The position numbers and the translations under genes were made by a program. Shown here piece by piece: positions 10,790 through 54,071 of a DNA stretch of 64,000 nucleotides. The DNA comes from Candidatus Falkowbacteria bacterium. Its GTDB lineage: Bacteria > Patescibacteriota > Patescibacteriia > Patescibacteriales > UBA12075. The notes beneath the pieces were generated by a model. It was given only the letters and a program-made list of their open reading frames with translations. It was not told the origin of the DNA and did no database searches. The stretch spans positions 19,720 to 83,719 of the forward strand of contig JAZDLN010000051.1 of NCBI GenBank assembly GCA_043801965.1. Direction: 5' to 3'. Position 1 is the first letter of the stretch, and each line of letters begins with the position of its first letter.

Positions 10790-12099
10790 ATAATAACCCC
10801 GCCCCCTAAAACCTCGTCCCCGTCATAAAACACGACCGATTGCCCCGGTGTTACCGCCCGCTGCGGTTCCTTGAGTTTAACGTTATATTCCTTAACTCCG
10901 CCCTCAAGCGCCACCGGAACACCCCTCCCCCTCCCACCCCGAATGATGGGCGGGTGCCGGAGCGGAGCGGAGGCGGGAGGGGTATTGGGGAGAGGTAGAG
11001 ACGCGACTTCGCATCCCACCGCCTTATGCCGGTACCGGATCACGGCCTCGCATTTTAAAGGCATCTCCGGCTCGAATCCGGAAACCCAATTGATTTCAGA
11101 GACGATAAAATTATCGCGGAAAAGCGCCGGGTCGTTTGCGTCGGATACGACGTATAAAGTATTGGTTTTATAGTCCGTGCCCGCGACATAATAAGGCCCG
11201 GTGCCGCCAATCTCGACTCCCCGCCTCTGCCCGAGCGTATAAAGCGGCAAACCCTGATGCTGTCCGATTACTTTGCCCGCACCCTCTCGCGCCGCCGGAA
11301 CACCCCTCCCCGTCCCTCCCCTAATTAGGGGAGGGTGCTGAAGCGGAGCGGAGGCAGGAGGGGTGCTAGATGCAAGAGCCACTATCGGCCCGGGCTCCAT
11401 TTTAAGATATTTTTTCAGATACTCGTTATGCTCCAAAATCTTCCCCTCGCTGTTTAAAAAACAAACATCCTGGCTTTCGCCCGTTAAATGCGGCAATCCC
11501 GCCTCCGCCGCTATTTTCCTGATTTCATCCTTAGTGTATTCTCCGAGCGGAAACAGTATTTTTTTCAGTTGATCCTGCGTTAAAGTATATAAAAAATACG
11601 ATTGGTCTTTATTAGTATCTATACCCCTAAACAAAGCACATAATTCATTTTTCATGACATAATGCCCGGTAGAGAGATAATCCGCGCCTAATTCGTCAGC
11701 CACGCGTAAAAGCTCCCCGAATTTAATAAGCCGGTTGCACCTAACGCATGGATTTGGCGTTATCCCCTCTTGATAACTTTTTAAAAAATAATCTATTACC
11801 TCTTTCCGGAATCTGACGGTCAGATTGACCGGATAGAATCTTATGCCGAGCTTCTTAGCCACCTGCCGGGCCGCCGCCTCGCTTTTATCGTTCGGAAACC
11901 CCAGGCGCATGAATATGCCGGTTACGTCATAACCCTCTTTACGCAACAAAAAAGCCGCCGTGGAAGAATCTACCCCCCCGGACAAGGCTACAACAACACG
12001 AGATTTTTTTCCCGCACCGCCAGCTTGCCCCGCATAATCCCGAAGGGATTTGTGCGGGGACGTGGCAACTATTACTTTTTTATTTTTTGCATTTTTCAT
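10744..12099 (-). CDS. mnmA: tRNA-specific 2-thiouridylase MnmA. It carries two in-frame repeat-element insertions and an element-derived C-terminal tail.
   Basis: PP-loop SGGVDSS and motifs CVRCNRLIKF and DYLSTGHY. The 451 aa length exceeds the usual roughly 360 aa because of insertions TPPASAPLQHPPLIRGGTGRGVPAAREG and TPPASAPLRHPPIIRGGRGRGVPVALEG. Confidence 0.9.
   Translation of the reverse strand: MKNAKNKKVIVATSPHKSLRDYAGQAGGAGKKSRVVVALSGGVDSSTAAFLLRKEGYDVTGIFMRLGFPNDKSEAAARQVAKKLGIRFYPVNLTVRFRKEVIDYFLKSYQEGITPNPCVRCNRLIKFGELLRVADELGADYLSTGHYVMKNELCALFRGIDTNKDQSYFLYTLTQDQLKKILFPLGEYTKDEIRKIAAEAGLPHLTGESQDVCFLNSEGKILEHNEYLKKYLKMEPGPIVALASSTPPASAPLQHPPLIRGGTGRGVPAAREGAGKVIGQHQGLPLYTLGQRRGVEIGGTGPYYVAGTDYKTNTLYVVSDANDPALFRDNFIVSEINWVSGFEPEMPLKCEAVIRYRHKAVGCEVASLPLPNTPPASAPLRHPPIIRGGRGRGVPVALEGGVKEYNVKLKEPQRAVTPGQSVVFYDGDEVLGGGVIMPSPDSLRSSPSPAI
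10920..10984. repeat. In-frame nested-palindromic element copy (diverged) inside mnmA.
   Basis: cacccctccccctcccaccccgaatgatgggcgggtgccggagcggagcggaggcgggaggggta. Outer IR cacccctcc / ggaggggt(g/a). Confidence 0.65.
11301..11365. repeat. In-frame nested-palindromic element copy inside mnmA.
   Basis: cacccctccccgtccctcccctaattaggggagggtgctgaagcggagcggaggcaggaggggtg. Inner perfect palindrome ccctcccctaattaggggaggg. Confidence 0.75.
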
Positions 12100-12114
12100 C
12101 TTTAGTAAACTTCA

Positions 12115-12161
12115 CTCTCCCGTGAGCGACGCCAGCCGGGGGAGAGGGGCGGGGGTGAGGG
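12115..12161. repeat. GC-rich palindromic element with GGGGGTGAGGG tail, just upstream of mnmA.
   Basis: ctctcccgtgagcgacgccagccgggggagaggggcgggggtgaggg. Confidence 0.5.
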
Positions 12162-12188
12162 AAAAACAAAAAGCGCGCCAGCGCCTTC

Positions 12189-12225
12189 GTGCTAAATACT
12201 AAATACTATATGCTAAATACTTAAA
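12189..12225. repeat. TACTAAATAC direct-repeat element supplying the stop codon of the 12213-13613 gene.
   Basis: gctaaatactaaatactatatgctaaatactt. On the coding (minus) strand, repeated GTATTTAGT units place TAG in all three frames. Confidence 0.55.
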
Positions 12226-13670: not shown

Positions 13671-13720
13671 GCCCTCACCCTGACCCTCTCCCTGGACTGC
13701 GGTGTCCAGGGCGAGGGAAC
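13671..13720. repeat. GC-rich palindromic element, reverse orientation.
   Basis: gccctcaccctgaccctctccctggactgcggtgtccagggcgagggaac. Confidence 0.5.
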
Positions 13721-13817: not shown

Positions 13818-13869
13818 CTCCCCTCTCCCGCGGCGCCGCAGCCGCGGGAGAGGGGCTGGGGGTGAGGGC
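13818..13869. repeat. GC-rich palindromic element.
   Basis: ctcccctctcccgcggcgccgcagccgcgggagaggggctgggggtgagggc. Confidence 0.55.
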
Positions 13870-14782: not shown

Positions 14783-14861
14783 GTGAAATCCTTTCCTGAA
14801 AAAATTAATATTTAAAGATCGTATGTTTAAAAATATATAACGATTAGTCTTCCGTCCTGCT

Positions 14862-14884
14862 TAATACTAAATACTAATTTTCTA
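14862..14884. repeat. Short copy of the TACTAAATAC element at the stop of the sortase gene.
   Basis: ttaatactaaatactaattttcta overlapping stop TAG (14874-14876). Confidence 0.45.
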
Positions 14885-15539
14885 AAAGCTCCGCGATCAC
14901 GACCAGCCTCTGCGCGGTCGAGTAGATCGGCGTGCAGGTGAACATGGTCAGGGTCGGTTTTTCGGTCGGATTCATAATAGAAAGATCCGTGGGTTCCACT
15001 ACTTTTATTTCTTTGATACGGTAAAAATAATCCTTTTCTTTATATATCACGGAAACAATATCCCCGATAACCAATTTATCAAACAGGAAAAAGGTCAGAT
15101 TGTTGGGCGGCAGATATTTAAAACGATGCCCGGTAATGACGGTGTTGCCCCCTTTATCCGGGGTCGAACTTTCCGGCACGCGCCAGGAGCCGCGGGACAA
15201 GCCGTAATCGGCGGATTTAGCTTCCACGATCGGCGCGTTTACGCCGATCTTGGTGATTATTATCCGGTTCGGGGATACCGCGTACTCGGCTTCGGGTAGC
15301 TTGCTCACGATCTTGGCTGTTTTCTCTTTGACGATAACCTCGTCCTGATGGACGGCCGCCGCCTCCGTGCTCGTACCCGTAACTCCGGCCAGAGACGCCT
15401 CCCTTCTTTGCGTCATCCTGTATTTTACGGAAGGATAGAGCGGCAGGGCGAATATATAAACTATCACGAGGATAGCCAAAAATTCCATTGTTAAAACAAC
15501 CGCCTTTAAGACTTTTCCTTTTATCGCTTTTTTCTCCAT
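14874..15539 (-). CDS. Sortase family transpeptidase.
   Basis: N-terminal TM anchor, catalytic His (VITGHRF) and TLTMFTCTP (TLxTC Cys motif). Immediately downstream of a giant surface protein gene. Confidence 0.8.
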   Translation of the reverse strand: MEKKAIKGKVLKAVVLTMEFLAILVIVYIFALPLYPSVKYRMTQRREASLAGVTGTSTEAAAVHQDEVIVKEKTAKIVSKLPEAEYAVSPNRIIITKIGVNAPIVEAKSADYGLSRGSWRVPESSTPDKGGNTVITGHRFKYLPPNNLTFFLFDKLVIGDIVSVIYKEKDYFYRIKEIKVVEPTDLSIMNPTEKPTLTMFTCTPIYSTAQRLVVIAELLEN

Positions 15540-19047: not shown

Positions 19048-19698
19048 CTATCCCCAGAACCCCAGTATCTTTAAAATTCCCGCCTTGATAGCGCCGATGA
19101 AACCGGACCAGACAGCCGCGATTCCCCGGTTATCATCCGATCGATCGTCTTCCGCGGCGTTGCCGGCATCATCCGCGCAATCGCTTTCTTCGAGTGCGCA
19201 CAGCCCGTTCCCGGCCGGTTCTTCCGGCTCTTCCCAAAGCTCGCCCAAGACCGGCTCAGCAATACCCCTCCCCGTCCCTCCCCTAATTAGGGGAGGGTGC
19301 TGGAGCGAAGCGGAGGCGGGAGGGGTGTCTGAAATTTCCGCCTCCGCTTTATCGCTATCGGCGTTAACCCGGTTCTCTATTTTTAATTGAACGCTGTCTT
19401 CCGTTTCTTTCTCTATCTTTACATCAGTCACCTTTGTTCCGTTTATTTCGGTCTCTATCTCGATCTCTCCGCGCGTTTTCCCCTCGACAACGGCGCCGTT
19501 TTTCGCCGTATTGCCGCCGCTTGAGGCGGATGATTTTATATTATTGGTTATCTTTGCGCCCCCGGAATCGTCATAATAATAAACCTCGTCATATTCGGCC
19601 AGCAAATCATCGAGGTTAAAGGCCCGCGTCCCGGCCGGCAGAAACAGCATCGACGCTATGATAATATAATTAATTTTTTTAAAATATTTTACGGACAT
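19048..19698 (-). CDS. Secreted acidic hypothetical protein containing an in-frame palindromic-element insertion.
   Basis: Signal peptide. Internal DTPPASASLQHPPLIRGGTGRGIAEP segment encoded by the element at 19264-19327. Confidence 0.5.
   Translation of the reverse strand: MSVKYFKKINYIIIASMLFLPAGTRAFNLDDLLAEYDEVYYYDDSGGAKITNNIKSSASSGGNTAKNGAVVEGKTRGEIEIETEINGTKVTDVKIEKETEDSVQLKIENRVNADSDKAEAEISDTPPASASLQHPPLIRGGTGRGIAEPVLGELWEEPEEPAGNGLCALEESDCADDAGNAAEDDRSDDNRGIAAVWSGFIGAIKAGILKILGFWG
19264..19327. repeat. In-frame nested-palindromic element copy.
   Basis: tacccctccccgtccctcccctaattaggggagggtgctggagcgaagcggaggcgggaggggtg. Confidence 0.75.
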
Positions 19699-20013: not shown

Positions 20014-21162
20014 TTAGAATCTTATCCGATTGATAATGTGGTTCACCCTATTGACAATGCGCGTATCGCTGTTTGACGGACCAGTGGTAATAATGCCGCC
20101 CCAGCCCGCAGCGCCGCCGGCTCCGCCGGCTCCGCCGATATTATCGTCTTCCGAACCGGTTATCGATCCGCCGTTGCCGGCATCGGTTCCATCGCCGCCA
20201 TCGGCTATGTTATCGCCGGTCAGGGCGCTGGTATTGGCAGTATTGACGAGAGTGGCTGTGTCCAGGTTATTGATCACTATATTTTCCGTGCTGGAGGCCA
20301 AATCATTTTCGCAATCGCAGGGAGCTATTCTTGTCCTGTCGACATTAACTCTGTTTATGATCCTGGAAGCGGCAGTCGCGGCTCCGGTCGTGATATTGCC
20401 GCCGTCTCCGCCCGCGCCGCCCGCGCCGCCCGCGCCGCCGGTATTAGCGTCATCGGACTCGGTTACATTACCGCCGTGTCCGGCCGCGCCGCCCGCGCCG
20501 CCGTTAGCGGTATTATTACCGGTAGTAGCGAGGGTAGTAACAGTATTGGTGATAACGGCGGTTTTGGTATTCGTTACTTCTATGGACAGATCCCTTACTC
20601 CACCATTATCATCTTCATCATCCCCGTCTTCGTCCGGGCAGACCTCATCATACTCGATCGAAACCGCGTCCACGTCGTAAGCGTCCGCTGTGTCTCCGTG
20701 CAGGTCCGGATCGGTCGTATCGACCAGCCTGACGTACTGGACGCACTGGTCCACGTTAAAAGTGGTTACGCCGTCGCCTTCGCCTTCGTCATTATTGGCC
20801 TCGCCGATAAAATTAAAATTAATTCCGTCATCGCTCACGTACACATCGGCTGTTTCCAGGGGAAATGCTCCGCCGGTAATCTCGTAAGTCGCCAAGGTAA
20901 GTACGCCGGATGCTTTGACCGGGAATTCGAGGGTCAGGTCGCCGCCGAAACCTAAAGAAACGAAATCGCCGTCGTTCGGACCTAAGGCGTCAGTCGGATC
21001 GCTCCTTGAAGCGCTAACCGGATCGCCATTCTTCTGATCGCCCTGGTTGAATTCATCGACGCTGTCCGCGAAATCAAGAACAGCCGCGTCCGCGTAGAAC
21101 GTGGACATGAACGGCGATAAAGCCAACATAAGCCCTAAAACAAAAATAAATGTTTTCTTCAT
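20014..21162 (-). CDS. Secreted Gly/Asp-rich repeat protein.
   Basis: Signal peptide MKKTFIFVLGLMLALSPFMSTFYADA. Two internal copies of a GGAGGAGGAGG-containing module. No sorting signal. Confidence 0.5.
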   Translation of the reverse strand: MKKTFIFVLGLMLALSPFMSTFYADAAVLDFADSVDEFNQGDQKNGDPVSASRSDPTDALGPNDGDFVSLGFGGDLTLEFPVKASGVLTLATYEITGGAFPLETADVYVSDDGINFNFIGEANNDEGEGDGVTTFNVDQCVQYVRLVDTTDPDLHGDTADAYDVDAVSIEYDEVCPDEDGDDEDDNGGVRDLSIEVTNTKTAVITNTVTTLATTGNNTANGGAGGAAGHGGNVTESDDANTGGAGGAGGAGGDGGNITTGAATAASRIINRVNVDRTRIAPCDCENDLASSTENIVINNLDTATLVNTANTSALTGDNIADGGDGTDAGNGGSITGSEDDNIGGAGGAGGAAGWGGIITTGPSNSDTRIVNRVNHIINRIRF

Positions 21163-21242
21163 AAGATTTTCCGTTAAGTTATTATTTACTCAAAGGATTC
21201 AAATAAAGAACATCGACCTTTATCGCTTTTTATTCTTTGATC

Positions 21243-21282
21243 CTTTGGGCGGATGAGGACGAACGTCCCTATCCGCCCAAAG
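21243..21282. repeat. Nested palindrome ctttgggcggat-gaggacgaacgtccct-atccgcccaaag.
   Basis: 12 bp perfect outer arms around an inner palindrome ggacgaacgtcc. Confidence 0.45.
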
Positions 21283-21324
21283 AAAGGAAGGCTTTTTCTT
21301 CCTTCTTCGGATTTTTTACAAACA

Positions 21325-23931
21325 TTAAACAGCCTGCGTTTTGCGCCCTAAATATAAACCTATGGTCCCGAGCGATATCATGATCGCGGAGAGCGCGATT
21401 AACTCGTCAAAACCGAACCCGGTTTCCGGTAAAGTCGTACGCACCTCCAGATCAGCCGTGGTCCTTACCGGTTCATGGTTATCCGCCCGCGCTTCCGCCC
21501 GATTGACGTAAACGCCCGTGGCCGCGCTTCGGTCGATATTTGCCGAAATGATGATTTCCCGGCTCGCTCCGGGAGCCAGATCGCCGAGCATGAACGTTTT
21601 AGAGCTCGTGCCGTTATCGACAAAAGAAAGTCCGGAGGGCAGGGTATCGGTCATGACCGCGTTAAAAGCCGTTAAATTCCCCGTGTTCCTGACCGTAACC
21701 GTGAATTTAATATTCTTGTCCCCGGGTCTGGCGAAAACACGGTCGATCTTCTTGGTTATGGAAAGTATCGGTTCACCCTCTTCCCCCCTGACGCAAGTAT
21801 CACTCGATAAAGTATTTACGGAAATTTCCGGCCCGAAGATAATACTCGAATTATTGACGGATACCGGTCGGACGTAATAAGTTTTCCCGATATCAAGACC
21901 GATGATCGATTCTTCGTGGCCGGTAACTTCTTCGCTGTCCTGCGTGGTCGAAAACGCGTAACCGAAATTAGGAGCCGTGCTCGTGCCGATATCAGAGTGG
22001 GAAACCGTATCGTAAATAAGGCGTGAAGCGGCCGGTTTTGACGTTAACCAGGAAAATATCAGGAAGTCACAGCCGGAATTTACATTTTGAAAATTCTTTA
22101 TTTCGAATATTGGTATCCCGCCGCCGCCATTGCCGCCTCCGTTGCCGCCGCCTCCGCCATTGCTCGCGGGCTGTTTATAATTTACGAAATCAACGGTTTT
22201 GTCTTCGCTTTTATGTTCCTTTTTATCTGTTTTTATGTTGACGATCGCCATGCCGTCAGCGGGATCGACGTAACTCCAGCCGGAAGGAAGAGTCTCGGTA
22301 ATAGTGTAATCGCCTTCCGGCAGTCCGCCGAAAACGGTACAACCGTTTACCGTTGATTGGGTGGTCGTGGCCACAGTCCCGCCCGAGAGCGTGAACTGCC
22401 AGACGGCCGTGGTTGTGGCGCGATCGCCGGTCGTCGAAGCCGAGCCGTCCGCGTCTTCGTATTTGCATACCTTGATCGACCCCTCCGGTTCCCGGAAGTT
22501 TACGAACTTTACGGTTTTGTCTTCGCATTCTTCAAGGTTCACGGTTATCTTGCCATCGGCCGGATCGACGAAACTCCAGCCGAAAAGAAGAGTTTCGGTA
22601 ATAGTATAATTTCCGGCCGGAAGCTCATCGAAGGTGGCACAGCCGTCAATGGTCGATATTGCGGTCGTGGCCGTGCCGTCATGGATAATATATTCCCAGA
22701 TACTGTCGGATAATATCCGGTCGTCAGTGGTCGAGGCCAGTCCGTCTTTATCTTCGTATTTGCATACTTTGATCGAGCCGGTTTTATCGCCGCCGCCTCC
22801 GCCGCCGTTGCCTCCGCCGCCTCCGCCGCCATTACCCTCCTCTTTATAATTAACGAAATTGACGGTTTTATTTTCGCCTTTTAAGAGTTTCGCGGCCATA
22901 ATTCCGTTAGCGGGTTCGACGTAACTCCAGCCGGAAAGAAGAGTTTCGGTAATAGTATAATCCCCGGCAGTAAGCCCATCGAAAGTGGCGCAGCCATCCA
23001 CGGTAGATCTTACGGTCGTGGCCGTATCGCCGTTAAGGGTATATTCCCAGACGTTATCGGCAAGCGTCCGGTCGTCCGTAGTCGAGGCCGAGCCGTCCGC
23101 GTCTTTGTATTTGCAGACTTTGATCGAACCTTTCGGCGCCGGAGGAACAGGTTCTTCCTTGTGATTCACGAAAGCGATGAACTTATTCTCCGCGTTACCG
23201 AGATTAACCGTCCGTATGCCGTTATCGGGAACAAGAAAAGACCAACCGGAGAGCAGGGTTTCCGTAACAGTATAATTGCCCGCTTCCAGTCCGGTAAAAG
23301 CGGTACAGCCGTTTTCGGTCGTCTGTATTTTATCCGCGCCTCCGGAAAGGGTGTATTCCCAGATCGAATCGGAAAGGACGCGGTCGTAAGTGGATAAAGC
23401 GATCCCGTCCGCGTCTTCATATTTGCAGACAGTGATAGATGAAGAGATCGTCTCGGCCTGACGATTACCGAAATGCAGACTGCTTATGTTCTGTCCGGCC
23501 TGCAGATTAACCACGTGTTTCGTGGGGTCGTCCTGGTTCGGGTAAACTATATTATTCGGAAAAGTCTCTGTCCAGCCGGGTTTCTGGGTTTCGGCCACGA
23601 TATAATTACCGGCCGCGAGGTTATCGAAAATATAGCAGCCGAAATCGTTGGTTACGGTCGTAGTGGAAACATCCCCGCTTAAAACGATCTCCCAGCCGGG
23701 GAGGATATCCGCGGTACTGGTGCCGGTTTCATCCCAGAAACCGTCGCCGTCAGCGTCATTCCATTTACAGCCGGAAATCGAGCCTAATGGCGGCTCCGCG
23801 GCTTTCGCTTCCTCCGGAACGGCAAAAAACACGCCTACGAAAGACATGTTGAAGATAAGTACGCTTAAAAGGAAAACATTGAAGAATCTCCGGATTCTTC
23901 TGGTTTTTTTACTGAGGCTTGGGATCTGCAT
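21325..23931 (-). CDS. Cell-wall-anchored (LPETG) pilin/adhesin-like protein with four Cna-B/prealbumin-like repeats, poly-Gly linkers and a C-terminal DUF11 domain.
   Basis: Repeats SIKVCKYEDADG ... GDYTITETLLSGWSY. The C-terminus ends LPETGFGFDELIALSAIMISLGTIGLYLGRKTQAV (motif, TM, basic tail). Confidence 0.75.
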   Translation of the reverse strand: MQIPSLSKKTRRIRRFFNVFLLSVLIFNMSFVGVFFAVPEEAKAAEPPLGSISGCKWNDADGDGFWDETGTSTADILPGWEIVLSGDVSTTTVTNDFGCYIFDNLAAGNYIVAETQKPGWTETFPNNIVYPNQDDPTKHVVNLQAGQNISSLHFGNRQAETISSSITVCKYEDADGIALSTYDRVLSDSIWEYTLSGGADKIQTTENGCTAFTGLEAGNYTVTETLLSGWSFLVPDNGIRTVNLGNAENKFIAFVNHKEEPVPPAPKGSIKVCKYKDADGSASTTDDRTLADNVWEYTLNGDTATTVRSTVDGCATFDGLTAGDYTITETLLSGWSYVEPANGIMAAKLLKGENKTVNFVNYKEEGNGGGGGGGNGGGGGGDKTGSIKVCKYEDKDGLASTTDDRILSDSIWEYIIHDGTATTAISTIDGCATFDELPAGNYTITETLLFGWSFVDPADGKITVNLEECEDKTVKFVNFREPEGSIKVCKYEDADGSASTTGDRATTTAVWQFTLSGGTVATTTQSTVNGCTVFGGLPEGDYTITETLPSGWSYVDPADGMAIVNIKTDKKEHKSEDKTVDFVNYKQPASNGGGGGNGGGNGGGGIPIFEIKNFQNVNSGCDFLIFSWLTSKPAASRLIYDTVSHSDIGTSTAPNFGYAFSTTQDSEEVTGHEESIIGLDIGKTYYVRPVSVNNSSIIFGPEISVNTLSSDTCVRGEEGEPILSITKKIDRVFARPGDKNIKFTVTVRNTGNLTAFNAVMTDTLPSGLSFVDNGTSSKTFMLGDLAPGASREIIISANIDRSAATGVYVNRAEARADNHEPVRTTADLEVRTTLPETGFGFDELIALSAIMISLGTIGLYLGRKTQAV

Positions 23932-24060
23932 AGGTTTGATTGTAAATAAATAATAACTGAGTTATTATTCCGTTAGTTTATAATTATGAAATATTAATAA
24001 TTGAATTATAGTTTCGACTGATTAAATTATTGTTATTATTTAGTTAAATCAGTATTAAAG

Positions 24061-24161
24061 CCATCCCCTCCAGGGCGCGATGTCCGGGGAGGTTGGACTA
24101 AAATGTTCAATATCTCCCTTCTCCCTGCCAATAGGCAGGGAGAAGGGTTGGGGATGAGGGC
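24061..24161. repeat. Two adjacent GC-rich palindromic elements; the second has a GGGGATGAGGGC tail.
   Basis: tctcccttctccctgccaataggcagggagaagggttggggatgagggc. Confidence 0.5.
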
Positions 24162-24258
24162 GATGGCCAACAAAAAAACAGCCGAATTATCAGCTGTCAT
24201 ATTTTTTTAACAAAATACCGTCAATGCTTTTATTTGGAAGTCTCCTCCAACGCATTCT

Positions 24259-24651
24259 TTACGCGGAGTTGTAATGTTCAATCCGCCCATTCAAGTCGTC
24301 TAAAAGAGCTTTTAAATACTGATACGGCTCTTCATGCGCGGGAAAAGACTGAACGATCGCCTTGATCTCATTTCTGGTATCGGCGATAAATTTCAAATTA
24401 AAATAAAAATTGCTCGTTATAAGCGCTTGGCAAAGCACCTCGATGCCGAAATTTATGCGCGCGCATGCCAACATTCTCTCTATCCCTTCGGTCGTTGGCC
24501 CGCCCACGCTCTCTAAGTACTCTTTAACGAGTTTTTTTATCTGTTCAACCGCCGCCATGTGTGGCAAATAGGTTAAACTCCACTTATCCTCGTTATTCCC
24601 GCAAATTACGTAACCACCCATCTTGCGCCTCCTATCGATTGTTGTGACCAC
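24259..24651 (-). CDS. Hypothetical protein (130 aa).
   Basis: ORF only. Confidence 0.35.
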   Translation of the reverse strand: MVTTIDRRRKMGGYVICGNNEDKWSLTYLPHMAAVEQIKKLVKEYLESVGGPTTEGIERMLACARINFGIEVLCQALITSNFYFNLKFIADTRNEIKAIVQSFPAHEEPYQYLKALLDDLNGRIEHYNSA

Positions 24652-24919
24652 AATGATCTTTAAAAAAGTGCTATCCTCGCGCGGACGGGAATTCCGGCTC
24701 GAAGAAAAGCCCGAATTTCCGCCCTCCGTAAAAATAGCATCCTTTAATATATTTTCAAGTGAAAATTATCCTATTTATCTTTCGGCATATAATCCGCGTT
24801 TTGCGCTTCTATCATCTCTCCGCGGATCCGGCGCAGATTTATACGCGGATTTAACGCTGATATGTGTTCTTGTTATGCGCTTGCCCCGCATGAGCGAAGC
24901 GATTTTGCGGGATTATGCG

Positions 24920-27900
24920 TTACGCGTTATACGCCTTGCGCTTTAAGAGCGCGCTCGCTCCAGTAAGTCCTCCGACCATCATAATGAGAGCCATAAACTC
25001 GAAGACGCTCCATCCTGTTTCGGCCAATACTTCTATTTCCCTAACCTCCAGGTCTGCCATGGCCTCGAGCTGTTTATGGTTATCGGATCTTATCGTGGCG
25101 GTATTGACGTATATTTTTTCCGCGGCATCGTCTATGACGTTCGCTAAATAAGTGATTTCCCCCGTTTCGCCGGGCAGAAGGTCTCCGATGGCCCATTCCC
25201 GGGTGGTCGAAGCGGTATCGGCGTAAACGATCCCCTCGGGAAGAATATCCTTGATTATGACGTTAAAAGCGGTTAAATTCCCCGTATTGGCGTAATTGAT
25301 CACGTACTTGAAATTCTTATCCCCCGGATTGTAGAATGATTTCTCGTCCGGAATGACTTTCGTGATCGAAAGTATCGGGTCCCCTTCTTCGCCTTTGACC
25401 TCGACGCAGGCGTCGGTCTTGTATTTGACGGTTTTCTCGGCTTTATCCGATCCTTCTTCGGCCTTGGCCGTAAAGGAATATTCGGTATAAGGCTTTAAGC
25501 CGCCGATCGTGGTCGAATGCAGGGTGCTTTCCGTGGTCGTGTCGGTCGAGGTGGCGTCTTTGATATCGTCGGAATCGAGGCCGTAAACGACCCAGCTGGT
25601 CACGGTCTTGTTAGTGCGCCATTCTATTTTGGCCGTATTTTCGTCAATGCACTTAGCTTCAATTTCCATGATATCGAGGAAAACATGGCCTCCGCCGCCG
25701 CCTCCGCCGCCTGGCGTAGTGCAGTCGTTCTTACAGCTGTCATTATTATTGCTATTAGCGTCATCGCACTGTTCTCCCCTGTTCGTCTGGACGATGCCGT
25801 CGCCGCAATAAGGACCGCCGCCGCCCTCAGTCGTGCAGGTGGCGGAGCAGCCGTCGCCGGAAACGTTATTGCCATCATCGCATTGCTCTCCAGGGGTGTT
25901 TCCCGATATACCATCGCCGCACTTGGGCAAAGTGCAATCGTTATGGCAGCCGTCGGCATTATCGGTGTTTCCGTCGTCGCATTCTTCGTCCAAGACGTTA
26001 ACTGTGCCGTCGCCGCAACGTGGTTCCGGGGTCTGATAATTAAGGAAAATAAGCGGTTCAAGGCTTACCGCGCCGACCGTAACCTGATGCGCGCCGCCGT
26101 AAGGATAGGAGTTTACCCAGTTTCCGCCCACAAGCGGCATTTCGGCAACCGTGTAGTCGCCATAAACCAGGCCGTCTAAAGTAACACAGGCTGTTTCGCC
26201 GTTAGTGGCCGCGTCTACATTCGTTAAATCCGGCTTAGTAACCAGGAAATTCCAGGTTAAGGGCGTATCGGTCGCGTGCTCGTAAATTCCGAGCAGGCCG
26301 TTATCGTAATATTTGCAGATGGTTAATGATCCGGTTTCGATCGCGCAATTAGCGTCACAGCCATCGCCATCGATGCTATTATGATCGTCGCATTGTTCGC
26401 CGGTATCGATGTTGCCATCGCCGCAGTAGGGTACGTTTTCCAAGACGCAATCAGCGCTACAGGTTTGGTGCGGCCCGACGCCGGTCAAGCCGTCACATTG
26501 CTCCCAGCTTTGGTTTATAAGGCCGTCTCCGCAAATAGGTCCGTCGTCCTCGTTTTGGCAGTTAGCGTCGCAACCGTCGCCATCAATGTTGTTATGATCG
26601 TCGCATTGTTCGCCGGAATCTATGTTGCCGTCGCCACAATAGGGCACGTAATTCGTTTCGCAGTTATTGTCGCAGGTGTAATGTTCTGGAACGCCTGCAT
26701 TGGTCGGATCGTTAAAATCGCAGATCTCGGTGCCGTTTTTTATGCCATCGCCACAATAAGGGATATAGGTCAAATCGCAGCTTAAATTACAAATATTATG
26801 CTCTGGAACGCCGGCATTGGTCGGATCGTTAAAATCGCAGATCTCGGTGCCGTTTTGAACACCATCGCCGCAGAAAGGACCGGTTAAGGTTATTTCGCTG
26901 CAGATACCGGAGCAATAGGTGCAGTTTCCGCCGTAAGCCGGGACACACTGCCGGCCGTTATTTACGCCGTCGTCACAAACTTCGCCGTTATCCGGATTGC
27001 CGTCGCCGCAATAAGGCACGTATGTCGTTTCGCAGTTATTGTTGCAGGTGTAATGTTCCGGAACGCCGGCATGCGTCGGATCGTTAAAATCGCAGATCTC
27101 GGTGCCGTTTTGAACGCCATCGCCACAGAAAGGACCGGTCAGGGTCATCGGTTGGCAAATATTTGAACAATAAGTACAGCTTCCCCCATAAGCCGGGACG
27201 CATTGTACTCCGTTTTGTCCGTTATCGTCGCAAATTTCGTCGGTATCGGTAATACCGTCGCCGCATTCAGGCTCCGTGCAGTTATTGCGGCAATCGTCAT
27301 TATCGATGTCATTGCCGTCGTCGCATTCTTCGCTTACCTGATTGACGGTTCCGTCTCCGCAGACCGGAGGCGCGCAGAAAACTTCAGTGGTTTCTTCTTC
27401 GCAAAGAGCGGCCGGCAATTCGTTGGCGGTTACGCAAGCCTTATTTAAAAGAGTCGATCCGCAGGCCGTATCGGTTTTAACTGAAGTTAAAATCTCTATG
27501 ACCCTCGTTTCACCCGGATGCAAAACGTCATAAACCCATTCGTTGTTGCCGCTGGTCGGAACAGGGTTTGAACTCGTAAAAACGGTCTGACTGCTATAAT
27601 ATTCCTTAAGTATGACACCGCTCCCCGTACAATCGGCCGTACCGATGTTTTCCAGGGTCAGGACGTACGATAAATTTCCCCCCGGAGATACCGGATCCGG
27701 ATTGTCTGTTTTAGTAAGCTTTAATTTACACTCCGGGCCGCCGCAAAAAGTCAGATGGCTGATATCGTAAGCTCCCTTAACAACCGTTCCGGATGTTCCT
27801 CCTGGGAATTCCGTATAATTAGTAGCCGCCTTCCTTAAAACTTTAGCTACCGCCGGATTTGAGGTCCAGCTGGCGGAGGCGGTGTTTCCGGTAACAGCGG

Positions 27901-28522
27901 TGGTATAATCAGAATTGTGCTTGCTTATATCTTCGTTCCAGTCGCCGCTCCACTCCCATTTAGCAACCGTAAAATAGTCGTCGCCTAATTTTTCCTTGCA
28001 TTCGTCGCCGTCTTTTTTGTTCGTAAAAGTACAAAAAACATTTTCTTTATCATCAAGGTCGATTACGACTTTTCGATTAGGGATATCGATAACCGCTTCC
28101 GCGTCTCCGGTACAAACAATATTAGTCAGCGTCCATCCCGCCCTGGCCTCTTCGGTAATGGTGTATTTTCGATCTCCGGTAACATAAGCGTTTTTCGTGC
28201 CGCCATCGGTTAAAATAAAACTTCCCAGACCGCCAATAAAATTAAAAGAGGTTTTTCCAGATCCGGATTCTGACGGATTGGTTACTTTCTTGATAGTAAT
28301 ATTCCCGTGACACGCCAAGGCCTCTCCGGGCGCGACCATAAAAATACCTCCTAAAGCCATGCCGAAAGACATATTAAGCACAAGGAGGCTCATGGAAAAA
28401 ACGTTGATCGCTTTGTAAATTTTGCCCTTTCTGGTGTTTAAAAAATTGGGCGCGTAATGAAACGCGTAATTAGGAGCTATCTGCCGGGATGATAGCAGAT
28501 TAGGAGAGTATGAGTCATGCAT
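24920..28522 (-). CDS. Giant cell-wall-anchored (LAETG) adhesin with about 12 Myxococcus-type cysteine-rich repeats, a fibronectin-III-like domain and a DUF11 domain.
   Basis: Repeats CGDG..N..EQCDDGN...GDGC...C match the Myxococcus cysteine-rich repeat pattern. The C-terminus ends LAETGWSVFEFMALIMMVGGLTGASALLKRKAYNA. Confidence 0.75.
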   Translation of the reverse strand: MHDSYSPNLLSSRQIAPNYAFHYAPNFLNTRKGKIYKAINVFSMSLLVLNMSFGMALGGIFMVAPGEALACHGNITIKKVTNPSESGSGKTSFNFIGGLGSFILTDGGTKNAYVTGDRKYTITEEARAGWTLTNIVCTGDAEAVIDIPNRKVVIDLDDKENVFCTFTNKKDGDECKEKLGDDYFTVAKWEWSGDWNEDISKHNSDYTTAVTGNTASASWTSNPAVAKVLRKAATNYTEFPGGTSGTVVKGAYDISHLTFCGGPECKLKLTKTDNPDPVSPGGNLSYVLTLENIGTADCTGSGVILKEYYSSQTVFTSSNPVPTSGNNEWVYDVLHPGETRVIEILTSVKTDTACGSTLLNKACVTANELPAALCEEETTEVFCAPPVCGDGTVNQVSEECDDGNDIDNDDCRNNCTEPECGDGITDTDEICDDNGQNGVQCVPAYGGSCTYCSNICQPMTLTGPFCGDGVQNGTEICDFNDPTHAGVPEHYTCNNNCETTYVPYCGDGNPDNGEVCDDGVNNGRQCVPAYGGNCTYCSGICSEITLTGPFCGDGVQNGTEICDFNDPTNAGVPEHNICNLSCDLTYIPYCGDGIKNGTEICDFNDPTNAGVPEHYTCDNNCETNYVPYCGDGNIDSGEQCDDHNNIDGDGCDANCQNEDDGPICGDGLINQSWEQCDGLTGVGPHQTCSADCVLENVPYCGDGNIDTGEQCDDHNSIDGDGCDANCAIETGSLTICKYYDNGLLGIYEHATDTPLTWNFLVTKPDLTNVDAATNGETACVTLDGLVYGDYTVAEMPLVGGNWVNSYPYGGAHQVTVGAVSLEPLIFLNYQTPEPRCGDGTVNVLDEECDDGNTDNADGCHNDCTLPKCGDGISGNTPGEQCDDGNNVSGDGCSATCTTEGGGGPYCGDGIVQTNRGEQCDDANSNNNDSCKNDCTTPGGGGGGGGHVFLDIMEIEAKCIDENTAKIEWRTNKTVTSWVVYGLDSDDIKDATSTDTTTESTLHSTTIGGLKPYTEYSFTAKAEEGSDKAEKTVKYKTDACVEVKGEEGDPILSITKVIPDEKSFYNPGDKNFKYVINYANTGNLTAFNVIIKDILPEGIVYADTASTTREWAIGDLLPGETGEITYLANVIDDAAEKIYVNTATIRSDNHKQLEAMADLEVREIEVLAETGWSVFEFMALIMMVGGLTGASALLKRKAYNA

Positions 28523-28685
28523 AAAAAACGTCAGGCATATAATTTAAATAAAAATTATGCCTGGATGAATATTTAATTAGAATGATTATCTACCTTAGCA
28601 TAATTTTCTCTATTTTGTCAATAGTAAAATTAAAAAATATTAATATTTGATATTATTCTAACATTAAATAAATTAATAACATAAA

Positions 28686-28730
28686 AAAAACAGGCTATTT
28701 TTTAGCCTGTCATGTTTTTTTGGGGAAACG
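28686..28730. terminator. Bidirectional rho-independent terminator.
   Basis: acaggcta-ttttt-tagcctgt flanked by an A-run and a T-run. Confidence 0.55.
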
Positions 28731-28772
28731 GTTAATAAGAATTAAGTTCGAATTTTTTGGATAATATTTTTT

Positions 28773-28940
28773 TATTTTGTTGATATGGCAAGCATGCATA
28801 TGCCCACCGTCAGAAGGAAATAACCCAAGTCTTCGAATTTTTTCAGTTTAGGCCATACGCCTATGCCGAATCCCGGCAGAATGAACGATATTCCTATCCA
28901 ATGACACAGACCGAGTTGTTTAAAAAACAAAAGGCCCATA
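28773..28940 (-). CDS. Unlisted small membrane protein (55 aa), MGLLFFKQLGLCHWIGISFILPGFGIGVWPKLKKFEDLGYFLLTVGICMLAISTK.
   Basis: Hand translation of the minus strand. AAGGAGGG is 3 nt upstream of the ATG. Two hydrophobic helices. Followed by the terminator at 28686-28730. Coordinates approximate (+/-2). Confidence 0.4.
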
Positions 28941-29076
28941 TACCCTCCTTCTTATATTTTTTATGTAAAGCCACAGCTTATATTTACTTATACGCTTAAA
29001 AAAGGATTTTGTTACACTAAATATTTTTTTTCTCGCCGAATTTCCCACAAAAAAACCCTCTGTGGAGACGCCCACG

Positions 29077-29104
29077 GTAGAGACGAGGCATGCCTCGTCT
29101 CTAC
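29077..29104. repeat. GTAGAGACG-armed perfect 28 bp palindrome.
   Basis: gtagagacgaggcatgcctcgtctctac. Confidence 0.65.
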
Positions 29105-29137
29105 GGGGGGTATTTAGGTGTTTGGTTTCCGCCCGCC

Positions 29138-29165
29138 GTAGAGACGCGATTAATCGCGTCTCTAC
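29138..29165. repeat. GTAGAGACG-armed perfect 28 bp palindrome with a different centre.
   Basis: gtagagacgcgattaatcgcgtctctac. Confidence 0.65.
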
Positions 29166-29207
29166 GCCGCGACATCTCCGAAAATAAAAAACCATGTTAG
29201 CTAGTCC

Positions 29208-29267
29208 TTCCCCCCTCCCGGCGGGGATGCCTGCCTGCCGGCAGGCAGGGACAGGAGGGGGTCAGAA
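29208..29267. repeat. GC-rich nested palindromic element.
   Basis: ccttcccccctcccggcggggatgcctgcctgccggcaggcagggacaggagggggtcag. Confidence 0.5.
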
Positions 29268-29276
29268 GTCCGGCAA

Positions 29277-43213: not shown

Positions 43214-43257
43214 GTTTCCCCCTCTCCGGAATCGGAGAGGGGGCAAGGGGGTGAGGC
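43214..43257. repeat. GC-rich palindromic element with GGGGGTGAGGC tail.
   Basis: gtttccccctctccggaatcggagagggggcaagggggtgaggc. Confidence 0.5.
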
Positions 43258-52880: not shown

Positions 52881-52935
52881 TGATTTCATATTTGATTAAC
52901 GTTGACCTTCGAAAATGAATGGAAAAATTAAAAAA

Positions 52936-52966
52936 AACGAGCGGGAAAAATCCGCTCTTTTTTGTT
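52936..52966 (+). terminator. Rho-independent terminator after corA.
   Basis: acgagcggg-aaaaat-cccgctc followed by ttttttg. Confidence 0.55.
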
Positions 52967-52993
52967 GCGCGACTGCACGAAGCTGGGTTCTCC

Positions 52994-53023
52994 GCTTAAT
53001 ACTAAATACTATATACTAAATAC
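52994..53023. repeat. TACTAAATAC direct-repeat element supplying the stop codon of dus.
   Basis: cttaatactaaatactatatactaaatactt, near-identical to 12189-12225. Confidence 0.55.
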
Positions 53024-54071
53024 TTTTCAAATACTCCCCAAACACACCCTCAATCTCCTTAAACGTATTAACGCGCACCAATTCTCTTCTTAACTCTTTC
53101 GCCCCGGATAGCCCGGCCGCGTAAGCGCAAAGCTGGCCGCGCATCTCTACTATCCCCCGCCCGCCTTTAAGGCCCTCGGCAAGCCGGGCGTGTTCTAAGG
53201 CGATTTTAAATACCGCCCGGGGAGAGCGCGCAAGGCTCTGTCCGGTGCGCACGGCCTTGAATATCCACGGCCGCCCCAAAGCGCCGCGCGCGATCCCGAC
53301 TCCGTCGGCTCCGGTTTCGGCTAATAATTCCTCAACACAACTTTTGACGTCAGCTCCCCTCGCCCGCGGCGCCGCGACACCCCTCCCCGTCCCTCCCCTA
53401 ATTAGGGGAGGGTGGCGAAGCGGAGCGGAGCTGGGAGGGGTAACGGTAACGCCAACCCCTCCATTCGCCAGAATCACGCCCCCGAAATGATCGCGGGCTT
53501 TTTTTATTATTCCTGTGTCGATCGTCCCGGCAAAACCCTGCTTTAGGGTCCGGCCGTGGATCATGATAGCGGAAATATTCAAGTCTTTAATAAATTCCAA
53601 AAAATCGATCAAACCGGTTCTGTTGACCCTGGTCCGGGTTTTGATCGAAACCGGCAAATTCGTGTTATCGATCGTGCTTTCGATTATCTTCCGCGCCAGC
53701 GGCATATTATCCATAAGTACCGCTCCCGCGCCCTGTTTGGCGACTTTCTTTACCGGACAGCCGAAGTTAATATCGATCCCGTCCGGACCGATCTTATCCG
53801 AAATTAGGCGCGCGGCCGCCGCGAAGTGATCCGGTTTCGCACCGAAAAGCTGGACTACGTACGGACGTTCTACCGGATCGAACTTAAGCATCCCTAAAGT
53901 TTTAACCGGATCATAAACCAGGGCAGTCGCGCTGGCCATCTCGGAATAAACGACGTCCGCGCCGAATTTTTTGCAAATCCGGCGCATGGCGCTGTCCGTA
54001 TAGCCCGCCATCGGCGCCAGGGCGTAGATCGGCCGTCCCCGTTTTTTTAATTTTTCCCAAAAATTACGCAT
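53016..54071 (-). CDS. dus: tRNA-dihydrouridine synthase with an in-frame repeat-element insertion.
   Basis: LAPMAGYTDSAMRRI ... DINFGCP ... GADGVGIARGALGRPWIF. Insertion TPPSSAPLRHPPLIRGGTGRGVAAPRARG splits the conserved ANGG / ADV...TGADGV region. Confidence 0.85.
   Translation of the reverse strand: MRNFWEKLKKRGRPIYALAPMAGYTDSAMRRICKKFGADVVYSEMASATALVYDPVKTLGMLKFDPVERPYVVQLFGAKPDHFAAAARLISDKIGPDGIDINFGCPVKKVAKQGAGAVLMDNMPLARKIIESTIDNTNLPVSIKTRTRVNRTGLIDFLEFIKDLNISAIMIHGRTLKQGFAGTIDTGIIKKARDHFGGVILANGGVGVTVTPPSSAPLRHPPLIRGGTGRGVAAPRARGADVKSCVEELLAETGADGVGIARGALGRPWIFKAVRTGQSLARSPRAVFKIALEHARLAEGLKGGRGIVEMRGQLCAYAAGLSGAKELRRELVRVNTFKEIEGVFGEYLKSI
53388..53441. repeat. In-frame nested-palindromic element copy inside dus.
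   Basis: cacccctccccgtccctcccctaattaggggagggtggcgaagcggagcggagctgggaggggt. Confidence 0.75.

What the first reader, a model, noticed from the sequence alone, without database searches (positions are those of the whole stretch)
10920..53441. A roughly 65 bp nested-palindromic element is inserted in frame into four genes (mnmA twice, dus, a secreted protein), resembling Rickettsia palindromic elements
- Copies at 10920-10984, 11301-11365, 19264-19327 and 53388-53441 share the structure CACCCCTCCCCGTCCCTCCCCTAATTAGGGGAGGGTG(C/G)...GGAGGGGTG.
- The structure is an outer inverted repeat around a perfect inner palindrome, CCCTCCCCTAATTAGGGGAGGG.
- All four copies lie inside coding sequence, in the same orientation and in the same reading frame relative to their host genes.
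- Each adds a similar Pro/Gly/Arg-rich peptide of roughly 27 aa, TPPASAPLQHPPLIRGGTGRGV..., and none interrupts the ORF.
- Two hosts are conserved tRNA-modification enzymes (MnmA, Dus). The extra segments sit where orthologs have contiguous sequence: between ANGG and ADV...TGADGV in Dus, and near the C-terminal beta-domain in MnmA.
- In-frame palindromic repeat insertion into housekeeping proteins is the hallmark of Rickettsia palindromic elements. I have not seen it described for a CPR-like genome; this is an inference.
Basis: partly seen in the sequence, partly recalled or inferred. Interest (0 to 1): 0.85.

Follow-up and report, generated by a model that had tools for sequence, protein, structure and literature searches.

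The report
In-frame palindromic repeats in Falkowbacteria genes
A 63-base nested-palindrome repeat has copied itself into surface loops of essential enzymes (MnmA, Dus) and a secreted protein of an ultra-small (CPR/Patescibacteria) bacterium without breaking the reading frame, much as Rickettsia palindromic elements do, and it belongs to a widespread, apparently undescribed repeat family.

Summary
Four 63-nt copies, 53-60 of 63 bases identical, lie in phase 0 inside three minus-strand genes: mnmA (twice), dus and a secreted-like protein. I found a fifth, larger relative that supplies the last 15 codons and the stop codon of mnmA.

- **Insertions:** A syntenic relative lacks exactly these 63 nt in dus. 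One MnmA ortholog lacks one copy and another lacks both. PDB alignments and AlphaFold models place every insert in a disordered loop between conserved secondary-structure elements.
- **Frame and orientation:** The shared frame is forced, because the inner palindrome CCCTCCCCTAATTAGGGGAGGG has stops in two of three frames on both strands, leaving only PPLIRGG. The shared orientation is not a family trait (14 same, 14 opposite).
- **Family:** Scans found 59 distinct copies, mainly in Falkowbacteria and other Patescibacteria assemblies. About half are intergenic. The rest sit in SecA, LigA, MiaB, UvrC, FeFe-hydrogenase and other genes.
- **Architecture:** ACCCCTCCC, an optional variable hairpin, the inner palindrome, then GGGAGGGGT.
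- **Relation to RPEs:** It behaves like Rickettsia palindromic elements but shares no detectable sequence similarity with them, and I found no prior description.
- **New lead:** All 8 DUF559 (Vsr-like nuclease) genes in the fetched DNA carry such a palindrome just upstream, against 5% of all genes.

The mobilisation mechanism remains inferred.

The parts
11302..11364 (-). Copy in mnmA (mid): 63-nt element ACCCCTCCT-GCCTCCGCTCCGCTTCAGCA-CCCTCCCCTAATTAGGGGAGGG-ACG-GGGAGGGGT. It codes MnmA aa 246-266, TPPASAPLQHPPLIRGGTGRG.
   Evidence: (CM 79.4 bits). It is absent from ortholog L025, which carries a different short palindrome at that site. It lies in a gap against E. coli MnmA 236/238. pLDDT is below 50 over parts of the insert (250-256, 263-270), with block means of 44-47.
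10921..10983 (-). Copy in mnmA (C-terminal beta-hairpin), older, with a decayed inner palindrome. It codes aa 373-393, TPPASAPLRHPPIIRGGRGRG.
   Evidence: (65.7 bits). It is shared with L025/P0002, where the palindrome differs from the canonical 22-mer at one base, and is absent from P0003. It lies in a gap against 2DER 336/343. pLDDT is below 50 for residues 377-399.
19264..19326 (-). Copy in a 216-aa protein with a hydrophobic N-terminus (secreted-like). It codes aa 125-145, TPPASASLQHPPLIRGGTGRG.
   Evidence: (81.2 bits).
53379..53441 (-). Copy in dus. It codes aa 211-231, TPPSSAPLRHPPLIRGGTGRG.
   Evidence: (80.6 bits). The syntenic relative L026/L027 has a 63-nt gap exactly here, and L028 has the copy. 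It lies in a gap against Dus structures 1VHN and 6EI9. It is the only low-confidence stretch of the Dus model, residues 210-239.
10692..10788 (-). Fifth, larger relative: CCCTCACCC, module, a 34-nt perfect palindrome ACCCTCTCCCGCGATTTAAATCGCGGGAGAGGGT, a hairpin module, then GGGTGAGGG. It supplies the last 15 MnmA codons (MPSPDSLRSSPSPAI) and the TAA stop.
   Evidence: I6; 30.9 bits, E 2.5e-4. L025 MnmA ends without this tail.
10744..12099 (-). Host gene mnmA (tRNA 2-thiouridine synthase), 451 aa.
19048..19698 (-). Host gene, a 216-aa secreted-like protein of unknown function.
53016..54071 (-). Host gene dus (tRNA-dihydrouridine synthase), 351 aa.

Best explanation
The four segments are copies of a short, non-coding, nested-palindrome repeat that spreads as DNA through Falkowbacteria and related Patescibacteria genomes. 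It works like a MITE, REPIN or RPE.

**Structure.** One element consists of:
- a 9-10-nt C-rich terminal arm (ACCCCTCCC);
- an optional variable module closed by GCC...GGC;
- a 22-nt inner palindrome (CCCTCCCCTAATTAGGGGAGGG);
- the complementary G-rich arm (GGGAGGGGT).
As a single strand it folds into a closing stem around one or two hairpins.

**Why copies survive inside genes.**
- The C and G arms cannot encode stop codons.
- The AT loop is open in exactly one frame on either strand.
- The length is a multiple of three.
- The product is a Pro/Gly/Arg-rich flexible peptide.
Insertions that land in that phase within a surface loop are therefore tolerated. Insertions elsewhere are presumably purged.

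**Shown here:** repeat identity, presence/absence at orthologous sites, both orientations, genic and intergenic copies, loop location, and the frame constraint.

**Inferred:** the copying mechanism. The best candidate is a structure-specific nuclease acting on the folded element. The DUF559 (Vsr-like) genes, which always carry such a palindrome at their 5' end, are the only recurrent neighbour.
For: **Repeat, not chance**
- The 22-mer and the 24-nt right part occur 3 and 4 times, with 0 expected in shuffles.
- Copies share 53-60 of 63 bases, including synonymous positions.

**Insertion polymorphism**
- L026/L027 is syntenic and about 80% identical in nucleotides. It lacks 63 nt in dus, whereas L028 has them.
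- P0002/L025 has the mnmA C copy but not the mid copy, and P0003 lacks both.
- A homolog of the L012 host protein in L005 lacks that insert.

**Dispersal**
- Scans returned 24 genome loci and 49 metagenome loci, giving 59 distinct copies.
- About half lie in long ORFs: SecA, LigA, two MiaB-like genes at different positions, UvrC, FeFe-hydrogenase, FemAB, radical-SAM and methyltransferase genes. The rest are intergenic.
- Orientation relative to local genes is 14 same and 14 opposite.

**Frame constraint**
- In every copy the only open frame across the inner palindrome, on either strand, reads PPLIRGG.

**Structural tolerance**
- The inserts coincide with alignment gaps against solved MnmA and Dus structures.
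- They coincide with the low-pLDDT coil segments between conserved strands or helices.

**Folding**
- Folding z-scores range from -3.2 to -6.8.
- In the seed alignment 93% of cells pair and 8 pairs change on both sides; 0 of 500 shuffles reach this.

**DUF559 lead**
- DUF559 is the only recurrent non-orthologous neighbour apart from ABC ATPases and NYN-domain genes, both common families.
- All 8 DUF559 genes have a C/G hairpin within 80 nt upstream, against 23 of 428 genes overall; binomial p about 7e-11, or about 2.5e-8 without the two ascertained cases.
- The L040 gene is bracketed by inverted copies whose outer arms ACCTCACCC and GGGTGAGGT pair. Deleting the interior gives a sequence like the solo copy in the same contig.
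Against: - No target-site duplication or clear target motif could be read at the one empty/filled pair. The alignment at about 80% identity is ambiguous.
- No transposase (IS or RAYT) was seen next to copies, so mobility is inferred from distribution only.
- Only 2 of 8 DUF559 genes have an element on both sides. DUF559 paralogs within one genome are diverged, and DUF559 has no known biochemistry; the closest PDB entry is 3HRL, of unknown function.
- The upstream palindrome could instead be a regulatory or terminator-associated feature.
- Translation of the inserts is not shown, as no transcript or peptide data were available.
- Compensatory changes in stems could come from template-switch repair within quasi-palindromes rather than from selection.
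- Only 64 kb of this genome was available, so the genome-wide copy number is unknown.
Confidence: 0.8

Rival explanations
1. The segments are ancestral or convergently selected peptide motifs. On this view a functional Pro/Gly/Arg linker or binding motif PPLIRGG is selected at the protein level, and the DNA palindrome is incidental.
For: About 40 of 117 Patescibacteria MnmA orthologs carry inserts at the same two loops, many of the P-L-x-[KR]-G-G type, so these sites tolerate or attract such peptides.
Against: - Copies are identical at synonymous positions.
- The same DNA occurs in intergenic regions and in both orientations, giving different flanking peptides.
- Close orthologs lack the segments.
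- The inserts are predicted to be disordered.
- DNA of other orthologs' inserts is also palindromic.
Confidence: 0.04
2. It is a structured RNA element, either a cis-acting mRNA hairpin for stability, pausing or translation control, or a small RNA. On this view the RNA fold is what is selected, and the genic copies are secondary.
For: - Predicted folds are very stable, with z-scores down to -6.8.
- Stems show changes on both sides.
- Related intergenic palindromes sit directly after terminator T-runs.
- The G-rich half also fits a G-quadruplex motif (sequence).
Against: - Copies occur equally in both orientations relative to transcription, so no single RNA strand is preserved.
- They sit in unrelated coding regions.
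- No Rfam family matches above noise.
- A DNA palindrome predicts the same statistics.
Confidence: 0.08
3. It is a REP/REPIN-type element mobilised by a RAYT (IS200/IS605-like Y1 transposase), or a classical MITE of an unseen IS. DUF559 would then be only a bystander that lands in the same intergenic spots.
For: - Imperfect nested palindromes with a conserved mismatch in the outer stem resemble REPINs.
- A GTAG-containing REP-like doublet exists in the window at 29077-29169.
- DUF559 genes are frequent, about 1 per 50 kb of the fetched DNA, so proximity is easy.
Against: - The family has no 5' GTAG.
- Half of the copies are intragenic.
- No transposase-like ORF recurred within 2.5 kb of 59 copies, although no HMM scan for RAYT was run.
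- DUF559 adjacency is far above the baseline.
Confidence: 0.08

Closest known systems
Rickettsia palindromic elements (RPE; Ogata et al. 2000 and 2002, as summarised in PMC10969869)
   Same: - Dispersed palindromic repeats, roughly half inserted in frame in unrelated housekeeping genes.
- They encode a conserved peptide and sit where the fold tolerates them.
- Both occur in small genomes.
- No known transposase.
   Different: - No detectable sequence similarity: the peptide matched no NCBIfam family.
- 48-97 nt against about 100-150 bp.
- GC-rich C-arm/G-arm nested palindrome with an optional variable hairpin.
- Open in one frame in both orientations.
- A different phylum (Patescibacteria).
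- A candidate nuclease partner (DUF559).
REP/REPIN elements with RAYT transposases (Gammaproteobacteria)
   Same: - Short imperfect palindromes, often nested or doublets, in many copies.
- A gene (here DUF559) flanked by inverted copies in some loci.
   Different: - REPs are extragenic and carry a 5' GTAG, and the partner is a Y1 HUH transposase.
- Here there is no GTAG, half the copies are in genes, and the recurrent partner is a PD-(D/E)XK/Vsr-like DUF559 protein.
Bacterial MITEs that occur intragenically (ERIC, Correia, BOX, QMITE1; review PMC10969869)
   Same: - Terminal inverted repeats, small size and no transposase.
- Occasional in-frame fusion with host ORFs.
   Different: - No target-site duplication was detected.
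- Much shorter.
- In-frame survival is the rule rather than the exception, because of the built-in stop-free frame.
Coding palindromes in Nematomorpha mitochondrial genes (PMC6649704)
   Same: Stable inverted repeats coexist with functional coding sequence.
   Different: In Nematomorpha both arms encode conserved parts of the protein and are not dispersed repeats. Here the palindrome is an added, dispensable, repeated insert.

Membership tests
Rickettsia palindromic elements (RPE-1 to RPE-10) | Sequence or peptide similarity to an RPE family | tested here: not met
   The peptides matched no NCBIfam family at E<=1. To my own knowledge NCBIfam includes TIGRFAM RPE domain models. The consensus bears no resemblance to the AT-rich RPEs. 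No direct DNA comparison with RPE sequences was possible.
Rickettsia palindromic elements (RPE-1 to RPE-10) | Palindromic repeat inserted in frame in unrelated protein genes, also found intergenically | tested here: met
Rickettsia palindromic elements (RPE-1 to RPE-10) | Insertions compatible with the protein fold (surface loops) | tested here: met
   The inserts fall in gaps against solved structures and in low-pLDDT coil between conserved elements.
Rickettsia palindromic elements (RPE-1 to RPE-10) | Host lineage Rickettsia/Rickettsiales, length about 100-150 bp | tested here: not met
   The window is a Candidatus Falkowbacteria MAG. The core is 63 nt.
MITE | Terminal inverted repeats, small size, no transposase gene, multiple copies | tested here: met
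   Termini are ACCCCTCCC and GGGAGGGGT. There are 59 distinct copies.
MITE | Target-site duplication | tested here: inconclusive
   The single empty/filled pair (dus) shows no clear duplication. The flanks of the four copies share none.
MITE | A cognate autonomous element with the same termini | tested here: inconclusive
   No IS was found. The L040 DUF559 gene is bracketed by ACCTCACCC...GGGTGAGGT with inverted inner palindromes, but this holds for only 2 of 8 genes.
REP/REPIN-RAYT | Conserved 5' GTAG and extragenic location | tested here: not met
   The family consensus has no GTAG. About half of the copies are intragenic.
REP/REPIN-RAYT | RAYT (Y1 transposase) gene flanked by the repeats | not tested
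   No recurrent transposase-like neighbour appeared in all-vs-all clustering of ORFs within 2.5 kb. No RAYT profile was run and no complete genome was available.
Known Rfam RNA family | Match at the gathering threshold | tested here: not met
   Only RNase P reached threshold in the window. Around the elements there was only sub-threshold noise.

The most novel reading that the evidence does not exclude
The nested C-arm/G-arm palindromes may be the non-autonomous form of a previously unrecognised mobile element of Patescibacteria. Its active gene would be a small DUF559 (Vsr-like PD-(D/E)XK) nuclease acting on the folded palindrome. Repeated in-frame insertion and decay of these elements would then be a major source of the lineage-specific P-L-x-[KR]-G-G loop insertions seen across CPR housekeeping proteins.
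Probability: 0.25. Interest if true: 0.85.

Novelty: new variant of a known kind. Interest (0 to 1): 0.65.

Why it matters
- **A second case in a distant phylum.** RPE-type selfish DNA inside protein genes has long looked like a Rickettsia peculiarity. Here the same behaviour appears in Patescibacteria, with a simple sequence rule that explains how copies survive: C and G arms without stop codons, plus a loop open in one frame on both strands.
- **A possible source of CPR protein insertions.** About 40 of 117 Patescibacteria MnmA orthologs carry extra residues at the same two loops, many of a similar type. This suggests such palindromes help create the unexplained insertions in CPR proteins. 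That matters for annotation, for structure prediction and for thinking about how new loops arise.
- **A testable role for DUF559.** The association gives a concrete hypothesis for a large domain family of unknown function.
- **Practical use.** These copies can serve as markers of strain-level insertion polymorphism in groundwater metagenomes.

Tried and rejected
- **Peptide census failed.** A peptide-level search of the 5.8-billion-protein database failed twice: the first query was too short, and a tandem query found 37 word candidates, none scoring.
- **Viral contigs.** No copy of the 22-mer.
- **Extending the window.** Four look-ups of window proteins found no record. P0003 DNA was not on record either.
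- **Target-site duplication.** The search was inconclusive.
- **Strand bias.** The idea of a strand or orientation bias, as expected for single-strand-DNA transposons, was rejected: 14 copies match the local gene direction and 14 oppose it.
- **DUF559 unit boundaries.** L001 and L018 are not syntenic downstream of the shared host gene, so the comparison was not possible.
- **Neighbouring genes.** ABC ATPase and NYN-domain neighbours were dismissed as common families.
- **Other readings.** I considered inteins or mini-introns and rejected them on size and on the stop-free, multiple-of-three design. Assembly chimera was rejected because L025 and L028, from an independent run, carry the same insertions.
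Full report
**1. Observation**

Reading the stated coordinates shows four closely related segments. On the minus strand, which is the sense strand of all host genes, each reads ACCCCTCCC-GCCTCCGCTCCGCTCCGGCA-CCCTCCCCTAATTAGGGGAGGG-ACG-GGGAGGGGT.

- The 22-nt inner palindrome occurs exactly three times. A 24-nt stretch of the right part occurs four times with at most 3 mismatches. Both had 0 matches in 100 dinucleotide-preserving shuffles.
- Refined boundaries from a covariance model are 10921-10983, 11302-11364, 19264-19326 and 53379-53441, scoring 65.7-81.2 bits.
- Pairwise identity is 53-60 of 63 bases. Every copy starts in codon phase 0 and encodes T-P-P-A/S-S-A-P/S-L-R/Q-H-P-P-L/I-I-R-G-G-T/R-G-R-G.
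- The hosts are three genes, not four: mnmA (10744-12099, minus; two copies), a 216-aa protein with a hydrophobic N-terminus (19048-19698, minus), and dus (53016-54071, minus).
- The window comes from a Candidatus Falkowbacteria MAG, because its MnmA and Dus are 100% identical to NCBI entries of that name on a 106-kb contig.

**2. They are insertions**

*MnmA*
- The closest ortholog, P0002 (77% identity), has the C-terminal copy but not the middle one. P0003 (70%) lacks both.
- At the DNA level, L025 (encoding P0002) keeps the C copy with its palindrome one base from the canonical 22-mer, whereas the window's copy has decayed at five positions. At the middle site L025 carries a different, shorter palindrome, CCCCCCTCCAAGAGGGGGG.

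*Dus*
- P0122 (79%) has the element. P0123 (75-79%, Falkowbacteria RIFOXYB2_FULL_47_14) lacks it.
- Its locus L026/L027 is syntenic with window 43-64 kb, running MraZ-RsmH-FtsI-MurF...Dus-CorA...Tgt.
- The nucleotide alignment shows a clean 63-nt gap at exactly the element.

*Structure*
- Against solved structures, the inserts fall in alignment gaps: E. coli MnmA 2DER residues 236/238 and 336/343, and Dus 1VHN 187/200 and 6EI9 222/231.
- The MnmA model has mean pLDDT 84. The insert-bearing loops 242-275 and 368-404 are modelled as coil between strands 237-241/276-281 and 361-367/405-414. pLDDT is below 50 for residues 250-256, 263-270 and 377-399.
- The Dus model has mean pLDDT 90.8. Its only low-confidence stretch is residues 210-239, between strand 199-203 and helix 242-253.
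- L025 and L028 come from an independent sequencing run and carry the same insertions, so assembly chimerism is excluded.

**3. Why the frame is shared**

In CCCTCCCCTAATTAGGGGAGGG, two of the three frames read TAG or TAA. Because the sequence is a perfect palindrome, the same holds on the other strand. In every one of 28 copies first examined, the only open reading across the palindrome, on either strand, was PPLIRGG.

- The C-rich and G-rich arms cannot form stop codons. They translate to Pro/Ser/Thr/Leu/His and Gly/Arg/Glu/Val.
- The shared frame is therefore a filter imposed by the element's sequence, not four coincidences.
- The shared orientation in the window is not a family trait. Over 28 oriented copies with a clear local gene direction, 14 agree and 14 oppose. 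Compact copies occur in genes in both orientations.

**4. The family**

Exact-match scans for the 22-mer returned 24 loci from species-representative genomes and 49 from metagenome contigs, and none from viral contigs.

- *Sources.* Genome hits are mostly Falkowbacteria RIFOXYC2_FULL_47_12 (8 loci) and RIFOXYA2_FULL_47_19 (4 loci), plus other Patescibacteria. Some MAGs are titled Gammaproteobacteria and one Bacteroidales. I could not check those labels.
- *Count.* After removing duplicates there are 59 distinct copies.
- *Termini.* All begin ACC(C/T)C and end G(G/A)GGT.
- *Compact forms.* Forms of 48-54 nt have only arms plus the inner palindrome. The outer stem carries a conserved T-T (or, on the other strand, A-A) mismatch.
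- *Longer forms.* These carry, on one side, a module closed by GCC...GGC. Its apical part is a hairpin of varying sequence, for example CCCGC/GCGGG, TCCGCC/GGCGGA or TCCCGA/TCGGGA.
- *Location.* About half of the copies lie in long ORFs. Pfam confirms the hosts as SecA, NAD-dependent DNA ligase, two MiaB-like enzymes (different positions), UvrC, FeFe-hydrogenase large subunit, FemAB, an Elp3-like radical-SAM protein, an FGE-sulfatase-like protein and a methyltransferase. The rest are intergenic.
- *Folding.* Single-strand folding gives a closing stem around the inner hairpin, plus the module hairpin where present, with z-scores of -3.2 to -6.8.
- *Covariation.* On an 18-sequence seed, 93% of cells pair and 8 of 21 pairs show changes on both sides; 0 of 500 shuffles reach this. 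Part of this rests on a MAFFT alignment of variable modules. It cannot distinguish selection on structure from template-switch repair within quasi-palindromes.
- *Known families.* No Rfam family matches. The peptide matches no NCBIfam family.

**5. More of the same in the window**

- The covariance model found a fifth relative at 10692-10788 (minus): CCCTCACCC, module, a 34-nt perfect palindrome with TTTAAA at its centre, a hairpin module, then GGGTGAGGG. It provides the last 15 codons and the stop codon of mnmA. The L025 ortholog ends without this tail.
- The MnmA N-terminus contains an unrelated 32-nt hairpin coding SPHKSLRDYAGQ. That peptide recurs in many Patescibacteria MnmA proteins, twice in one of them.
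- mnmA therefore carries four palindromic inserts.
- Related nested palindromes sit in intergenic DNA, typically just after a terminator T-run reading TTTTTTGTTG.

**6. Generality**

- Among 117 Patescibacteria MnmA orthologs, about 40 carry extra residues at the same middle loop, and many at the C-terminal hairpin. These often read P-L-x-[KR]-G-G, for example PPLIKGRELKGG, PLLIRRGEE and APLVKGGRG.
- DNA fetched for two of them shows C-run/G-run hairpins. In L079 the inserts are clear members of this family: ACCCCACCCCAA-CCCTCCCCTTATCAAGGGGAGGG-AATTAAA-GGGAGGGGT, plus a decayed ACCTCACCCCC...GGGGAGAGGT copy.
- The PLLIRRG variant corresponds to CCCTCTCCTAATTAGGAGAGGG, which differs from the window's palindrome by paired changes on both arms.

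**7. How it spreads (inferred)**

- No target-site duplication or transposase was found.
- I clustered all ORFs within 2.5 kb of copies. The only recurrent, non-orthologous neighbour other than ABC ATPases and NYN-domain genes was a small protein of about 120 aa. Pfam identifies it as DUF559 (PF04480, 100-119 bits), a Vsr-like PD-(D/E)XK fold. Its closest solved structure is 3HRL, of unknown function.
- All eight DUF559 genes in the fetched DNA have a C/G-rich hairpin within 80 nt upstream of the start codon, against 23 of 428 genes overall (binomial p about 7e-11). These include one in a locus fetched for an unrelated reason (L079) and several far from the copy that brought the locus in. Two cases were ascertained through the element itself; without them p is about 2.5e-8.
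- In L040 the gene is bracketed as follows: ACCTCACCC, module, inner palindrome, 17 nt, the gene, the inner palindrome with inverted loop, then GGTTAGGGGGTGAGGT. The outermost arms pair with each other. Removing the interior gives something very like a solo copy 2 kb away.
- This is the pattern expected of an autonomous element and its miniature derivatives. However, it holds for only 2 of 8 genes, and the paralogs are diverged. The palindrome could equally be a regulatory feature or a preferred landing site.
- I give this sub-hypothesis about 0.25-0.3.

**8. Comparison with known systems**

- Functionally this is the RPE phenomenon (PMC10969869, summarising Ogata et al. 2000 and 2002): palindromic repeats, about half inserted in frame in unrelated housekeeping genes, at positions compatible with the fold.
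- It is not a member of the RPE families. It shows no detectable sequence similarity to them, is half the length or less, is GC-rich rather than AT-rich, and comes from a different phylum.
- It differs from REP/REPIN elements by lacking GTAG and by being frequently intragenic.
- It differs from classical MITEs by having no detectable target-site duplication.
- Full-text searches for palindromic elements or MITEs in the Candidate Phyla Radiation/Patescibacteria, and for DUF559 together with palindromes or repeats, found no description.

**9. Verdict**

- It is a new variant of a known kind.
- Interest is moderate to high. The phenomenon appears pervasive in CPR proteins, and it yields a testable nuclease hypothesis.

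Noticed in passing
window 12028-12059 (-): A separate 32-nt hairpin, CCCCGCACAAATCCC-TTCG-GGGATTATGCGGGG, encodes SPHKSLRDYAGQ in the N-terminal extension of MnmA. The same peptide occurs in about 10 of 117 Patescibacteria MnmA orthologs and twice in P0114. This suggests another in-frame palindromic element family.
   Followed up: partly
window 10692-10788 (-): A 97-nt double-module relative of the element overlaps the 3' end of mnmA. Its 34-nt perfect palindrome has TTTAAA at the centre, which provides the gene's TAA stop and a 15-aa C-terminal tail absent from the L025 ortholog.
   Followed up: yes
window 13821-13868, 13672-13717, 24110-24166, 29205-29261, 43218-43253, 12113-12148: Intergenic nested C-arm/G-arm palindromes with other inner palindromes, such as CCCCTCTCCCGCGGC...GCCGCGGGAGAGGGG and CCTGCCTGCCGGCAGGCAGG. 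Most begin a few bases after a terminator hairpin and a T-run reading TTTTTTGTTG.
   Followed up: partly
window 29077-29169: Two adjacent palindromes carrying GTAGAGACG...CGTCTCTAC, which look like a REP/REPIN-type doublet with the GTAG signature. They are a different family from the finding.
   Followed up: no
window 12191-12222, 14859-14890, 52994-53025: A repeated AT-rich motif, GCT(A/T)AATACTAAATACTATAT(G/A)CTAAATACTT, lies at gene boundaries (repeat family D16). It may be a promoter or another regulatory signal.
   Followed up: no
L004 1402-1752, L007 6510-6863, L011 1135-1509, L018 2488-2859, L040 8595-8936, L067 280-503, L073 13094-13264, L079 60-431: Small DUF559 (PF04480) genes are frequent in these genomes, at about 1 per 50 kb of fetched DNA. 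Every one has a C/G-rich palindrome within 80 nt upstream. L040 and L067 also have one just downstream, and L067 is a degraded gene.
   Followed up: partly
L022 3611-3686 and L074 3015-3090: A full family member (GACCCCACCCCAA, the 22-mer, a long module, then GGAGGGGTC) lies next to an ABC ATPase gene on a 578-kb contig titled Bacteroidales. This is either spread outside Patescibacteria or a mislabelled MAG.
   Followed up: no
window dus aa 206-245; P0123, P0124, P0131, P0150 in alignment A4: Apart from the 63-nt element, this Dus clade already carries an older insert of about 15 aa at the same loop (GVGVA-GLVAPEDKRDN in the empty-site relative). Other orthologs have different inserts there, so the loop is a repeatedly used insertion site.
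   Followed up: partly
window 20014-33417: Several very large minus-strand ORFs (868-1362 aa) have internal tandem repeats of about 300-350 nt and Gly/Ala-rich runs (repeat families D1-D10). They are probably surface proteins.
   Followed up: no
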